This document shows, piece after piece, positions 15,842-18,210 of a stretch of 52,849 nucleotides of DNA (position 1 is the stretch's first letter; each line of letters starts with the position of its first letter). A model generated the notes under the pieces. That model had not been told where the DNA came from. It was given only the letters and a program-made list of their open reading frames with translations, and ran no database searches. Source of the stretch: a virus (Duplodnaviria; Heunggongvirae; Uroviricota; Caudoviricetes); the IMG/VR virus record IMGVR_UViG_3300045988_151019; one strand, 5' to 3'. Position numbers and translations under genes: made by a program.

Positions 15842-16840
15842 TTATCCGTTACCGCACGACGGTTTCTGCGTGATAAACGTCTCAAGCATCTTTTCCGCAA
15901 TTGCCGACCAGGTGTGACACTGGACCTTTTCAGCATTTTTCACGCGATCAACGCGAGCAATAACCTCATCCCAATCAATCCGCGACTTGATAACCATATG
16001 GTTCACCAAAGCCAGGCGATCTGGCGGAAGGCAATCGGGAGGCGTTAATACCAACGCCCCGCACATTGCCGCCTCAAGAACAGTTAATCCAAGGCTTTCG
16101 GGATGCGTAACGATAAAAACGTCACTCTTACGCAATTCAGCTGCAAATTCGGTTGCTGGCACCGGCGTCCGCCTGTATGGAGTTACCGAAATATTCCCCG
16201 GATCAATGGTAACCAATCCGTCATCAGTCAACGTTCTGGCCTCATACGGAACGGTCAGACGCTGAAGGTTCATAAGGATACTTAAGGAGTGATCAAAACC
16301 ACTAACATCAAATGCAGCGTGGTCTACAAAAATACGCAGAACATCGTCCGTTTTGGTTTCCAGATGGAACAGCTCCTGATTCGCTGCCCATCCAACATGT
16401 TTGTTAAAGCGATTATGACGTTCTAACCGACCGGGATTATCCAGGTACCGCCAGGTATCATCGCGGACAGTAAAAGTAATATCGACTGGTGCCGAATCCA
16501 GCATAGAACCGTCATATACCTGGGCTACCCATCCAGAGAATCGGCGACACAGTTGCATGCCTATTTCCCTGGGTACCGTAGTAAAATACCTCAATCCTGG
16601 TGCCAAAATGGCCTTCGCAGAACATGCTGTCGCAGCAGTCAACACAGCTTCAACATAATCCTCGGGGCTTTCGACGCCAGGGGAATATGGACGATGGTAT
16701 TGCAATGTTACCCCTGCCTCACTAAAGGCGCAGGCCAGGTTATAAGACCACATTTCCGTATATGTTTTCACATCACTGATGGCTGCAAATTTTCGCCCAA
16801 TGATCAGGATGTTCATCGGCTTTTCCTCATTCCATTGCAT
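15842..16840 (-). CDS. GT-B (family 1-like) glycosyltransferase candidate, coupled to ban
   Basis: HPESLGLTVLEAAMCGALVLTPP matches the GT1 E-x7-E region; start ATG shares one nt with ban stop (TAATG). Confidence 0.5.
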   Translation of the reverse strand: MQWNEEKPMNILIIGRKFAAISDVKTYTEMWSYNLACAFSEAGVTLQYHRPYSPGVESPEDYVEAVLTAATACSAKAILAPGLRYFTTVPREIGMQLCRRFSGWVAQVYDGSMLDSAPVDITFTVRDDTWRYLDNPGRLERHNRFNKHVGWAANQELFHLETKTDDVLRIFVDHAAFDVSGFDHSLSILMNLQRLTVPYEARTLTDDGLVTIDPGNISVTPYRRTPVPATEFAAELRKSDVFIVTHPESLGLTVLEAAMCGALVLTPPDCLPPDRLALVNHMVIKSRIDWDEVIARVDRVKNAEKVQCHTWSAIAEKMLETFITQKPSCGNG

Positions 16841-18210
16841 TAATAATCCTCTTGCCAGTCAGCACCAGCATAGTTATCAAACCGTGAGTATTGGCCGTTA
16901 AAAGCCAATCTCACCGTGCCAATTGGGCCATTTCGTTGCTTTCCGATAATTACCTCGGCAATGCCCTTCATTTCGCTATCCGGGTGATAAACTTCGTCGC
17001 GATACAGAAACATGATCAGGTCTGCGTCCTGCTCAATTGCTCCTGATTCACGTAAATCTGAATTTACCGGTCGTTTGTCCGCACGCTGTTCAAGCGATCG
17101 ATTAAGTTGTGACAATGCCACCACCGGTACTTGTAATTCCTTCGCCAACGCCTTCAGTGAGCGAGAAATCTCGGCAATTTCCAGCGTTCGGTTATCTTGC
17201 AGCTCGGGGACGCGCATAAGTTGCAGGTAGTCGATCATAATCATGCTCAAACCACCATTTTCTTTATAAACACGACGAGCGCGGGAACGAAGCTCTGTAG
17301 GTGTCAGGGCGCTTGAGTCATCAATAAAAATATTCTGCTTGTCCAACAGAATACCCATTGCGCCAGAAACCCGCGCCCAATCCTCGTCGTTAAGTTGCCC
17401 TGTCCGAATACGAGTCTGATCAACGCGTGCAAGAGAAGCCAGTGAGCGCATCATCAGCTGGTGGCTCGGCATCTCAAGGCTAAAAACCAATACGGGCTTA
17501 TCGTTACGAACTGCGGCATTTTCGACGAGATTCATCGCAAACGTGGTCTTCCCCATAGATGGGCGGGCGGCGACAATGATGAGATCGGACGGCTGAAGCC
17601 CTGCCGTCTTCTTATTGAGATCGGTAAATCCCGTATCAAGCCCCGTTACACCATCATGTGGTCGCTGAAACAACTCTTCTATGCGAGATACCGTTGCATC
17701 GAGAATGCTGGCGATATCTTTTGGACCACTACCGCTCTTTTGTCGTTTTTCAGCTATTTCAAAAACGCGGCGCTCGGCCATATCCAGCAATTCATTGCTG
17801 CCCCTGCCATCCTGCGCATATCCAGCTTCGGCTATTTCATTTGCGACGGAAATCATTTCACGAACAACCGCGCGTTCACGAACGATATCCGCATAAGCAC
17901 AAATATTTGCCGCGCTGGGCGTGTTCTTTGACATCTCCGCAAGGTACGCAAAACCACCGGCGCGTTCTAATTTACCGTTCTGTTCAAGTGCTTCAGCAAG
18001 TGTTATCAAATCAATCGGTTTGCCATGACTTAATAACCTCTCCATCTCACTGAAAATTTCACGATGAGCACTGGTATAAAAATCATCAGCAACTATACGA
18101 TCTGCAACTTCATCCCAGCGGCAGTTATCAAGCATTAAGCCACCAAGTACAGCTTGTTCTGCACTAAGGGAATTTGGCATGGATTCAAGAGGGGATGCAG
18201 ACATTAGCAC
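16840..18210 (-). CDS. ban: replicative DNA helicase, DnaB family (P1 Ban)
   Basis: 456 aa; Walker A ARPSMGKTTFAMNL; DnaB N-terminal domain; RecA-like core. Confidence 0.9.
   Translation of the reverse strand: MLMSASPLESMPNSLSAEQAVLGGLMLDNCRWDEVADRIVADDFYTSAHREIFSEMERLLSHGKPIDLITLAEALEQNGKLERAGGFAYLAEMSKNTPSAANICAYADIVRERAVVREMISVANEIAEAGYAQDGRGSNELLDMAERRVFEIAEKRQKSGSGPKDIASILDATVSRIEELFQRPHDGVTGLDTGFTDLNKKTAGLQPSDLIIVAARPSMGKTTFAMNLVENAAVRNDKPVLVFSLEMPSHQLMMRSLASLARVDQTRIRTGQLNDEDWARVSGAMGILLDKQNIFIDDSSALTPTELRSRARRVYKENGGLSMIMIDYLQLMRVPELQDNRTLEIAEISRSLKALAKELQVPVVALSQLNRSLEQRADKRPVNSDLRESGAIEQDADLIMFLYRDEVYHPDSEMKGIAEVIIGKQRNGPIGTVRLAFNGQYSRFDNYAGADWQEDY

What the first reader, a model, noticed from the sequence alone, without database searches (positions are those of the whole stretch)
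15842..16842. GT-B glycosyltransferase-like gene translationally coupled to ban
The 332-aa ORF carries a GT1-like ESLGLTVLEAAMCGALVLTPP motif and starts at a TAATG overlap with the helicase stop, so it is co-expressed with ban and the tRNAs. It is the second glycosyltransferase-like gene in the element, and a sugar transferase in a replication operon is unexpected.
Basis: partly seen in the sequence, partly recalled or inferred. Interest (0 to 1): 0.45.

Follow-up and report, generated by a model that had tools for sequence, protein, structure and literature searches.

The report
Phage P1 dbn, a glycosyltransferase gene
The ORF is the known phage P1 gene dbn, long annotated as a possible glycosyltransferase; it does have that fold, but its conserved partners are three other sugar-transferase-like P1 genes (pmgO, pmgP, pmgQ), not the helicase beside it.

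Summary
A 332-codon ORF lies at 15842-16840 (-), its first ATG overlaps the ban stop (TAATG), and it carries the ESLGLTVLEAAMCGALVLTPP motif. The window is a P1-type phage-plasmid (99.6% identical to P1 here). The ORF is P1 dbn, annotated in GenBank as "function unknown, possible glycosyltransferase", so the finding is not new.

The link to replication looks incidental:
- All homologues start at Met9, which has its own Shine-Dalgarno.
- Six P1-like contigs carry an extra ORF between ban and dbn.
- In lambdoid phages and phage EP_H11, dbn homologues sit in a pmgO-pmgP-dbn-pmgQ operon.
- Fusion proteins join Dbn-like domains to a PmgO-like domain or to a GT-A-like domain.
- Bacterial homologues lie next to WaaZ-like Kdo-transferase homologues in capsule loci.

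P1 keeps pmgO, pmgP and pmgQ about 6 kb away. I read Dbn as one enzyme of a dispensable, split glycan-building module. Its acceptor is unknown; an envelope glycolipid is my leading guess. Interest is low to moderate.

The parts
15842..16840 (-). dbn CDS as the longest ORF (332 aa). The conserved core starts at Met9, giving 15842-16816 (324 aa).
   Evidence: identified as P1 dbn; homologues start at Met9; natural variants start at Met9
16838..16842 (-). TAATG overlap of the ban stop (TAA 16842-16840) with the first ATG of the dbn ORF (16840-16838)
   Evidence: read directly from the sequence
16814..16828 (-). GAGGA Shine-Dalgarno (16828-16824) followed 7 nt later by the ATG of Met9 (16816-16814). 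This is the likely functional start, 22 nt after the ban stop.
16037..16099 (-). Motif ESLGLTVLEAAMCGALVLTPP. It contains the EX7E signature (E248, E256) of GT-B nucleotide-sugar transferases, preceded by the invariant T245-H246.
16319..16324 (-). Invariant D173-H174 at the end of the first strand of the C-terminal domain. This is a signature of the family. It sits where canonical GT4 enzymes usually carry the Arg/Lys phosphate-binding pair; that placement is my inference.
15795..15821 (.). GC-rich 11-bp hairpin (AAAAGCCCGG...CCGGGCTTTT) between the convergent genes dbn and gene 5. It probably acts as a bidirectional terminator ending the ban-dbn transcript.
   Evidence: -17.7 kcal/mol, z -3.5. 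The consensus scan did not list it because its T-tail is short.
16840..18210 (-). ban, the DnaB-type replicative helicase immediately upstream
18491..18566 (-). tRNA with anticodon CAT (annotated tRNA-Ile2 in P1), upstream in the same transcription unit. tRNA-Thr (20567-20642) and tRNA-Asn (20645-20720) lie further upstream.
9245..9907 (-). pmgO: Maf/sialyltransferase/MptE-like fold, a predicted CMP-ulosonic-acid transferase-like protein. It is a conserved neighbour of Dbn homologues and is fused to a Dbn-like domain in P0089.
8721..9347 (-). pmgP: distant paralogue of pmgO (phrog_2111), and a conserved neighbour of Dbn homologues
7349..8050 (-). pmgQ: phrog_1962 'glycosyltransferase' with a DxD motif (FYLDLDTVI), so probably GT-A-like. 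It directly follows the dbn homologue in other phages.
8047..8739 (-). ppp, a lambda-type Ser/Thr phosphatase. In P1 it occupies the slot between pmgP and pmgQ that dbn occupies in lambdoid phages and in phage EP_H11.

Best explanation
The ORF is bacteriophage P1 gene dbn.

What it encodes. Dbn is a cytoplasmic GT-B glycosyltransferase from a distinct, small family on the edge of GT4/Glycos_transf_1. The family signature is ...(I/L)xVDH... plus THxESxGxxxxExAxxG.

How it is expressed. It is transcribed as the last gene of the C1-repressed ban operon and ends at a hairpin shared with gene 5. Translation most likely starts at Met9, from the gene's own GAGGA site 22 nt after the ban stop. The upstream TAATG start is possible but is not conserved.

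How it works (inferred, not shown). Dbn has no role in replication. It is one enzyme of a four-enzyme glycan-building module. The other members are PmgO and PmgP (Maf/sialyltransferase/WaaZ-like, so predicted CMP-ulosonic-acid transferases, for which CMP-Kdo is the only such donor in E. coli K-12) and PmgQ (GT-A-like with a DxD motif). In other phages these genes form one operon, pmgO-pmgP-(GT-A)-dbn-pmgQ. In P1 the module is split: dbn sits after ban, and ppp occupies its slot. The module has no flippase or exporter, so it must act on the cytoplasmic face. It would assemble a short Kdo-containing glycan on an existing acceptor.

Acceptor (guess). My leading guess (about 0.4) is an envelope glycolipid such as the LPS inner core. 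That would alter the surface or receptor during lytic growth. Virion proteins are next (about 0.2).

Dispensability. The gene is not needed for plaque formation.
For: Identity. The region is 99.6% identical in nucleotides to P1 and 99.8% to JL22, where the ORF is annotated dbn.

Fold and motif.
- PF00534: E 1.5e-5, 25.0 bits.
- AlphaFold2 model: pLDDT 89.1, pTM 0.86.
- The EX7E glutamates, H246 and D173-H174 are invariant across 39 diverse members.
- The family has 377 clusters at 50% identity with E<1e-3.

Start codon. Homologues begin at Met9. Six P1-like contigs have a 101-aa ORF between ban and dbn, and homology resumes exactly at the Met9 ATG, behind an AAGGAG site.

Module.
- Contiguous pmgO/pmgP/dbn/pmgQ homologues occur in L003, L171, L170, L174, L004 and in phage EP_H11 (L176).
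- The three partner genes lie about 5 kb from the dbn homologue in L005 and L006.
- 14 of about 16 distinct non-P1 loci have a partner gene in the flank.
- 70 of 71 P1-like loci with enough flank keep pmgO and pmgP, and 69 keep pmgQ.
- Fusions: P0089 is PmgO-like (1e-23) plus Dbn-like. P0146 is Dbn-like plus the 189-aa GT-A-like protein encoded next to dbn in L003 (1e-22).

Bacterial homologues. They lie directly after WaaZ-like genes (TIGR04437, 1e-14 and 8e-10) in kps-type ABC-transporter capsule loci of Colwellia and Brucella pseudogrignonensis.

Dispensability. The CRISPRi knock-down of dbn scored as non-essential (PMC10695390). In-frame deletions of dbn, pmgO, pmgP and pmgQ were among the knock-outs with no plaquing defect and no change in antirestriction (PMC9024508).
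Against: - No enzymatic activity, donor, acceptor or product has been shown for Dbn or any partner. I found no paper on its function.
- The Pfam score is below the curated cut-off. No N-terminal GT4 domain is detected by sequence.
- The usual Arg/Lys phosphate-binding pair seems to be replaced by Asp-His. The donor could therefore be unusual, or in the worst case the protein is not catalytic.
- In P1 the module is physically split into two operons, so co-function in P1 itself rests on comparative genomics alone.
- Both operons are C1-repressed. A role in lysogenic conversion of the surface is thus not obvious. Changing LPS late in a lytic cycle would give limited benefit.
- The bacterial contexts (capsule loci) do not prove what the phage enzymes act on.
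Confidence: 0.65

Rival explanations
1. Virion glycosylation. Dbn and PmgO/P/Q decorate P1 structural proteins (capsid, tail or fibres) in the cytoplasm before assembly. This would resemble the glycosyltransferase clusters of some mycobacteriophages.
For: - In P1 the pmgL-pmgQ block is preceded by a late promoter and lies beside tail genes.
- In lambdoid relatives the module sits immediately upstream of the terminase and head genes, in the late region.
- The best structural match of PmgO is Maf, which glycosylates a protein, flagellin.
- There is no exporter or flippase in the module.
Against: - The main text of the P1 virion proteome and knock-out study never uses a word beginning 'glycos', and single deletions gave normal plaquing (PMC9024508).
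- The closest bacterial homologues are in polysaccharide loci, not protein-glycosylation loci.
- dbn itself is in an early, C1-controlled operon.
Confidence: 0.2
2. DNA- or replication-linked role. Dbn glycosylates phage DNA or a replication factor, which would explain its place after the helicase.
For: - It abuts ban, with a TAATG overlap.
Against: - The adjacency to ban is confined to the P1 lineage and is interrupted in some P1-like elements.
- Homologues in other phages lie among transferase genes with no helicase nearby.
- GT4 enzymes that act on lipids or small molecules match better than the DNA glucosyltransferases.
- The dbn deletion did not change antirestriction (PMC9024508).
- From my own knowledge, P1 is not known to make hydroxymethylated or hydroxylated bases that could accept a sugar.
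Confidence: 0.05
3. Glycosylation of a tRNA nucleoside (for example queuosine in the co-transcribed tRNA-Asn). The eukaryotic queuosine mannosyltransferase, a GT4-like enzyme as I recall it, would be the analogue.
For: dbn shares an operon with three tRNA genes, including tRNA-Asn (GTT), a queuosine-type tRNA. The GT4-like fold is compatible.
Against: Homologues in other phages and in bacteria are not linked to tRNA genes. They are linked to PmgO/P/Q or WaaZ-like genes and to capsule loci. I have no direct evidence for this idea, and the analogy rests on memory.
Confidence: 0.03
4. A catalytically dead remnant. Dbn is a displaced, decaying copy of a module gene kept only by linkage.
For: - It is dispensable.
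- It is displaced from the module.
- The Pfam score is below threshold.
- The canonical Arg/Lys pair is absent, which is my reading.
Against: - The full-length ORF is kept at 95-100% identity in more than 200 P1-like loci.
- All family-invariant residues (D173, H174, H246, E248, G251, E256, G261, W311) are retained.
- The model is confident.
- The Asp-His pair is a feature of the whole family, not a P1 lesion.
Confidence: 0.05

Closest known systems
Bacteriophage P1 Dbn (GenBank AAQ14048, 'function unknown, possible glycosyltransferase'); P7 Glt; RCS47 'putative glycosyltransferase, Dbn'; RefSeq 'glycosyltransferase family 4 protein'
   Same: It is the same gene. The region is 98-99.8% identical in nucleotides, and the position between ban and gene 5 is the same.
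   Different: Nothing material. The window element differs from P1 and JL22 further upstream, where an SPFH protein replaces tciABC. P7 annotates a shorter start.
GT4-type retaining GT-B glycosyltransferases (PimA, PimB', BshA, sucrose-phosphate synthase, GlgM, WaaG; Pfam PF00534 Glycos_transf_1)
   Different: - Only 10-15% identity.
- The Pfam score is under threshold, and no PF13439/PF13579 N-terminal domain is detected.
- The N-terminal domain is short, about 150 aa.
- Invariant Asp-His sits where I expect the Arg/Lys diphosphate-binding pair. That is an inference and was not checked by superposition.
- The family forms its own cluster set of 377 representatives.
WaaZ (Kdo III transferase, TIGR04437), Maf flagellin nonulosonic-acid transferases and Cst-I sialyltransferase, as relatives of the partner proteins PmgO and PmgP
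   Same: The partner fold is Maf/MptE/Cst-like. Bacterial Dbn homologues are adjacent to WaaZ-like genes.
   Different: - PmgO and PmgP are far below the WaaZ and MptE family cut-offs.
- They are only about 200 aa long.
- No Kdo or sialyl transfer has been shown.
- These relatives concern the partners, not Dbn itself.
Phage-encoded surface-glycan conversion systems (for example GtrABC O-antigen glucosylation)
   Same: A temperate phage carries dispensable glycosyltransferases that could alter the host envelope and its own receptor.
   Different: - Gtr systems use a bactoprenol-linked sugar, a flippase and a periplasmic GT-C enzyme, and are expressed in lysogens (my own knowledge).
- The P1 module consists only of soluble cytoplasmic-type GT-B, GT-A and sialyltransferase-like enzymes.
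- It sits in C1-repressed operons.
T4 alpha-glucosyltransferase and other phage DNA glycosyltransferases
   Different: There is no hypermodified-base pathway in the element, no antirestriction phenotype, and a different gene neighbourhood.

Membership tests
Bacteriophage P1 gene dbn (orthologue) | Near-identical sequence and the same position between ban and tail gene 5 | tested here: met
   99.6% nucleotide identity to AF234172 over 2601 nt. The annotated dbn CDS coincides with the ORF.
GT-B fold glycosyltransferases | Two Rossmann-like domains with an interdomain cleft | tested here: met
Pfam PF00534 Glycos_transf_1 / CAZy GT4-like | Score at or above the curated gathering threshold (26.4 bits) | tested here: inconclusive
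   25.0 bits, E 1.5e-5, covering only HMM positions 83-169. Some family members pass (P0098 29.9, P0149 28.4) and others do not. The database's precomputed Pfam and the RefSeq name call the cluster PF00534/GT4.
Pfam PF00534 Glycos_transf_1 / CAZy GT4-like | EX7E motif in the C-terminal domain | tested here: met
   E248 and E256 are invariant in alignments A1 (18 sequences) and A2 (39 sequences).
Pfam PF00534 Glycos_transf_1 / CAZy GT4-like | N-terminal GT4 domain (PF13439/PF13579) with a Gly-rich loop, and an Arg/Lys pair binding the donor diphosphate | tested here: not met
   There is no Pfam hit to the N-terminal GT4 domains. The sequence after the first C-domain strand is the invariant VDH, with no R/K. 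Positional equivalence was inferred from secondary structure, not from a superposition.
Pfam PF00534 Glycos_transf_1 / CAZy GT4-like | Retaining transfer from a nucleotide sugar | not testable with these tools
   Needs enzymology.
Phage pmgO-pmgP-dbn-pmgQ transferase module (defined here) | A Dbn-family gene within a few kb of PmgO/PmgP-type (or WaaZ-like) and PmgQ-type genes | tested here: met
   The window has pmgO, pmgP and pmgQ 5.9-8.5 kb from dbn on the same strand. 14 of about 16 non-P1 loci and 70 of 71 P1-like loci show the linkage. Fusion proteins P0089 and P0146 support it.
Phage DNA glucosyltransferases (T4 AGT/BGT type) | Acts on hydroxymethylated or hydroxylated bases made by co-encoded enzymes, and protects against restriction | not tested
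   Only indirect evidence is available. The published dbn deletion has no antirestriction change, and homologues have no such neighbours.

The most novel reading that the evidence does not exclude
P1 and a set of lambdoid and phage-plasmid relatives carry an unrecognised four- to five-enzyme cytoplasmic glycan-assembly module. Its members are two Maf/WaaZ-like ulosonic-acid transferases, a Dbn-type GT-B with an Asp-His signature, and one or two GT-A enzymes. The module would build a Kdo-containing oligosaccharide on a host or phage acceptor during lytic growth, for example remodelling the LPS inner core to mask the phage's own receptor, or glycosylating virions. In P1 the module has been split, which leaves dbn stranded behind ban.
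Probability: 0.4. Interest if true: 0.6.

Novelty: already known. Interest (0 to 1): 0.3.

Why it matters
As stated, the finding adds nothing new. P1 dbn has been annotated as a possible glycosyltransferase in the P1 genome record.

The useful result is a reframing. Dbn should not be read as a replication accessory. It is a member of a conserved set of transferase genes (pmgO, pmgP, pmgQ) that are still labelled 'putative morphogenetic' and have no known role.

P1 is a workhorse of E. coli genetics, and clean single deletions of all four genes already exist (PMC9024508). The hypothesis is therefore cheap to test. A positive result would reveal a new phage-directed glycan, on LPS or on virions, in a classical model system. 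It would also assign a function to a GT-B family of several hundred clusters, found in phages and in bacterial capsule loci.

Tried and rejected
- Sequence search of PDB with the protein and with its family profile gave no significant glycosyltransferase hit. The best were weak matches over the EX7E region to XcOGT and PimA, and a spurious KtrA match.
- NCBIfam gave only insignificant hits. PHROGs places the protein in phrog_2518, 'unknown function'.
- Three collection scans meant to find diverse Dbn loci returned almost only P1-like contigs: viral contigs twice and metagenome contigs once. One metagenome attempt failed because alignment A2 was too diverse. Diversity came instead from exact-protein look-ups, from genome contigs and from tblastn against phage records.
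- Literature searches for dbn, pmgO/P/Q, P1 glycosyltransferase and WaaZ-prophage found no functional study. The 2004 P1 genome paper is not held.
- The afdb50 fold library was not available.
- The consensus promoter scan found one sigma-70-like site inside ban (17477-17450), which coincides with the annotated 'P2dbn'. One site is fewer than the 3.5 expected by chance, so I do not claim an internal dbn promoter.
- I considered and set aside a DNA-glycosylation role, a tRNA-glycosylation role and a pseudo-enzyme reading (see the rival explanations).
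Full report
**1. What is in the sequence**

- The minus strand of window 15842-16840 carries a 332-codon ORF.
- Read on that strand, the junction is ...GAT TAT TAATG CAA TGG AAT GAG GAA AAG CCG ATG AAC ATC.... The first ATG (16840-16838) overlaps the TAA stop (16842-16840) of the upstream ORF (16840-18210).
- That upstream ORF is a DnaB-family helicase: Pfam DnaB_C at 5e-108 and DnaB at 2.7e-35.
- Three tRNA genes lie upstream on the same strand: CAT at 18491-18566, Thr at 20567-20642 and Asn at 20645-20720.
- Downstream, between the ORF and the convergent gene 5, an 11-bp GC-rich hairpin (15795-21) folds at -17.7 kcal/mol, z = -3.5 against shuffles. It is a plausible bidirectional terminator, although the simple consensus scan did not list it.

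**2. Identity**

- Megablast of 15700-18300 finds 18 phage records, all P1-type. JL22 is 99.8% identical, P1 99.6% and P7 98.3%.
- In the P1 record the ORF is dbn ('function unknown, possible glycosyltransferase'), downstream of ban. Its operon starts at the C1-controlled Pban promoter upstream of the tRNAs.
- P7 calls the gene glt, 'putative glycosyltransferase'. RCS47 calls it 'putative glycosyltransferase, Dbn', and RefSeq 'glycosyltransferase family 4 protein'.
- Published genetics show it is dispensable. The CRISPRi knock-down scored as non-essential (PMC10695390). An in-frame dbn deletion was among the 24 of 29 P1 knock-outs with no plaquing defect and no change in antirestriction (PMC9024508).
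- I found no paper that addresses its function.

**3. Is it really a GT-B glycosyltransferase?**

- By sequence it is borderline. PF00534 gives E 1.5e-5 and 25.0 bits against a gathering score of 26.4. Only the second half of the domain is matched, and no N-terminal GT4 domain is detected.
- NCBIfam, PHROGs and PDB sequence searches add nothing.
- By predicted structure it is clear. An AlphaFold2 model built on 18 homologues has pLDDT 89.1 and pTM 0.86.
- Among viral models the best match is a Tupanvirus glycosyltransferase, TM 0.76.
- A profile search of 1.84 billion representatives finds 377 clusters with E<1e-3, mostly 300-335 aa.
- Across 39 diverse members the invariant residues are D173-H174, H246, E248, G251, E256, G261 and W311 in P1 numbering.
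- E248 and E256 form the EX7E signature. In the model they sit in the strand (241-243), loop and helix (251-259) element where GT-B enzymes bind the donor.
- The invariant Asp-His follows the first strand of the C-terminal domain. Canonical GT4 enzymes usually carry the Arg/Lys diphosphate-binding pair at that point. I infer this equivalence from secondary structure and could not check it by superposition. It marks the family as a distinct branch and leaves the donor open.

**4. The start codon and 'translational coupling'**

- All non-P1 homologues begin at the residue aligned with Met9, MK/NILIIG.
- Met9 (ATG 16816-16814) has a GAGGA 7 nt upstream.
- In six P1-like IMG/VR contigs a 101-aa ORF lies between ban and dbn. 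Similarity to the window resumes exactly at the Met9 ATG. There it overlaps the inserted ORF's stop (ATGA) and follows an AAGGAG site.
- The first eight codons are therefore not conserved, and Met9 is a proven natural start.
- Either start lies within 22 nt of the ban stop, so co-expression with ban holds. The specific TAATG coupling is not established.

**5. What it works with**

The informative evidence is the gene neighbourhood outside the P1 lineage.

- Five lambdoid-type contigs carry one operon just upstream of the terminase, or in the equivalent position. These contigs have Q antiterminator, GpA terminase, lambda-type portal and capsid E genes. The operon is a PmgO homologue, a PmgP homologue, sometimes a 189-aa GT-A-like gene, the Dbn homologue and a PmgQ homologue. 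The loci are L003, L171, L170, L174 and L004.
- The cultured E. coli phage EP_H11 has pmgO-pmgP-dbn-pmgQ contiguous.
- In the Citrobacter phage-plasmid CP101055 and a relative, pmgO-pmgP-pmgQ are contiguous and dbn lies 5 kb away.
- The window itself carries pmgO (9245-9907), pmgP (8721-9347), ppp (8047-8739) and pmgQ (7349-8050). They are on the same strand as dbn and are separated from it by the oppositely oriented tail genes 26-25-7-24-6-5.
- In P1 the slot between pmgP and pmgQ, which holds dbn elsewhere, holds the phosphatase gene ppp.
- Of about 16 distinct non-P1 loci, 14 show a partner gene in the fetched flank. Of 71 P1-like loci with enough flank, 70 keep pmgO and pmgP and 69 keep pmgQ (some contigs were fetched twice).
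- Two natural fusions tie the proteins together. P0089 is a PmgO-like domain (1e-23 to P1 PmgO) followed by a Dbn-like domain. P0146 is a Dbn-like domain followed by a homologue (1e-22) of the 189-aa GT-A-like protein of L003.

**6. What the partners are**

- PmgO has weak MptE-like Pfam matches. Its PHROG is labelled alpha-2,3-sialyltransferase.
- PmgP is a distant paralogue of PmgO.
- PmgQ belongs to a PHROG labelled glycosyltransferase and has a DxD motif, FYLDLDTVI.
- In bacteria, Dbn-family genes directly follow WaaZ-like genes (TIGR04437, 1e-14 and 8e-10; PF27901). They form a recurring cassette: GT1, an unknown gene, a GT4-like gene, a WaaZ-like gene and a Dbn-like gene.
- In Colwellia and Brucella pseudogrignonensis that cassette lies within ABC-transporter (kps-type) polysaccharide loci.

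**7. Mechanism proposed**

Shown:
- the identity of the gene;
- the predicted fold;
- the conserved motifs;
- the operon structure;
- the conserved linkage and the fusions with PmgO/P/Q-type proteins;
- dispensability.

Inferred:
- Dbn transfers a sugar from a nucleotide donor as one step in the assembly of a short glycan, together with PmgO, PmgP and PmgQ.
- The module encodes no sugar-nucleotide synthesis. CMP-Kdo is the only CMP-ulosonic acid in E. coli K-12 (my own knowledge). The sialyltransferase-like partners would therefore use CMP-Kdo in that host.
- With no flippase or exporter, the enzymes must act at the cytoplasmic face.

My preferred acceptor is an envelope glycolipid such as the LPS inner core, where WaaZ acts, which could alter the phage's own LPS receptor (about 0.4). 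Virion proteins are the main alternative (about 0.2), favoured by the late-region placement in lambdoid relatives and by the Maf-like fold. DNA, tRNA and pseudo-enzyme readings are unlikely (section 8).

**8. Rivals**

- A replication or DNA role is disfavoured. The ban adjacency is specific to the P1 lineage and is interrupted within it. Homologues elsewhere have no helicase neighbour. The deletion has no antirestriction phenotype.
- A tRNA-glycosylation role has no support beyond operon membership.
- Decay into a pseudo-enzyme is contradicted by full retention of the family-invariant residues and by 95-100% conservation in more than 200 P1-like loci.

**9. Verdict**

- The fold assignment is supported.
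- The 'replication operon' puzzle dissolves into an incidental placement.
- The gene and its tentative annotation are already known.
- What may be new is the recognition that dbn belongs with pmgO, pmgP and pmgQ in a conserved phage glycan-building module of unknown product. I could not find this in the searchable literature. That is a testable lead of moderate interest, not a demonstrated discovery.

Noticed in passing
window 18594-19262 (-) and 19402-19638 (-): Between tRNA-Ile2 and the Thr/Asn tRNAs, this element carries a 222-aa SPFH/Band_7 protein (Pfam 1.1e-24) and a 78-aa hydrophobic ORF. P1 and JL22 carry tciA-tciB-tciC at this position. This looks like a cargo swap inside the ban operon.
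   Followed up: partly
L081 9699-10004 (also L082, L083, L085, L086, L090): A subset of P1-like contigs has a 101-aa ORF with no Pfam match inserted between ban and dbn. It overlaps the dbn Met9 start (ATGA).
   Followed up: partly
window 10071-10649 (-), pmgM: The 'putative morphogenetic' protein PmgM has a sub-threshold VRR-NUC nuclease match (21.2 bits against 23.8). It is conserved next to the pmgO-P-Q block in the Citrobacter phage-plasmid L005.
   Followed up: no
window 5206-5712 (-), pap: The P1 'acid phosphatase' Pap matches the HAD phosphatase domain of polynucleotide kinase-phosphatase (PF25109, 46 bits). It might instead be a sugar-phosphate phosphatase serving the transferase module.
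   Followed up: no
window 9245-9907 (-), pmgO: The annotated PmgO start is probably too far upstream. Homologues cover only about 80% of the 220 aa, residues 1-14 are disordered in the model, and the ORF overlaps both pmgN and pmgP.
   Followed up: partly
L007 3953-8702; L172 3-4560; L092 5913-10804: A recurring bacterial cassette (GT1, unknown 316-320 aa gene, GT4-like, WaaZ-like, Dbn-like) sits in kps-type capsule loci of unrelated bacteria. No KpsC/KpsS-type gene was seen in the stretches fetched.
   Followed up: partly
P0098, P0108, P0129, P0111/P0134/P0149/P0153/P0162; L177 5617-7275 (Stenotrophomonas jumbo phage RAS14): Dbn-family domains occur in several other architectures. These are tandem duplicates, fusions to a SAM methyltransferase, fusions to an alpha/beta hydrolase (also in a 320-kb jumbo phage), and fusions to an unassigned C-terminal domain of about 200 aa.
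   Followed up: partly
L002 1643-2506 (phage P7 glt): P7 annotates glt as 864 nt, leaving a 135-nt gap after ban. Yet tblastn shows the full-length homologue is intact there, so the start has probably been called too late.
   Followed up: no
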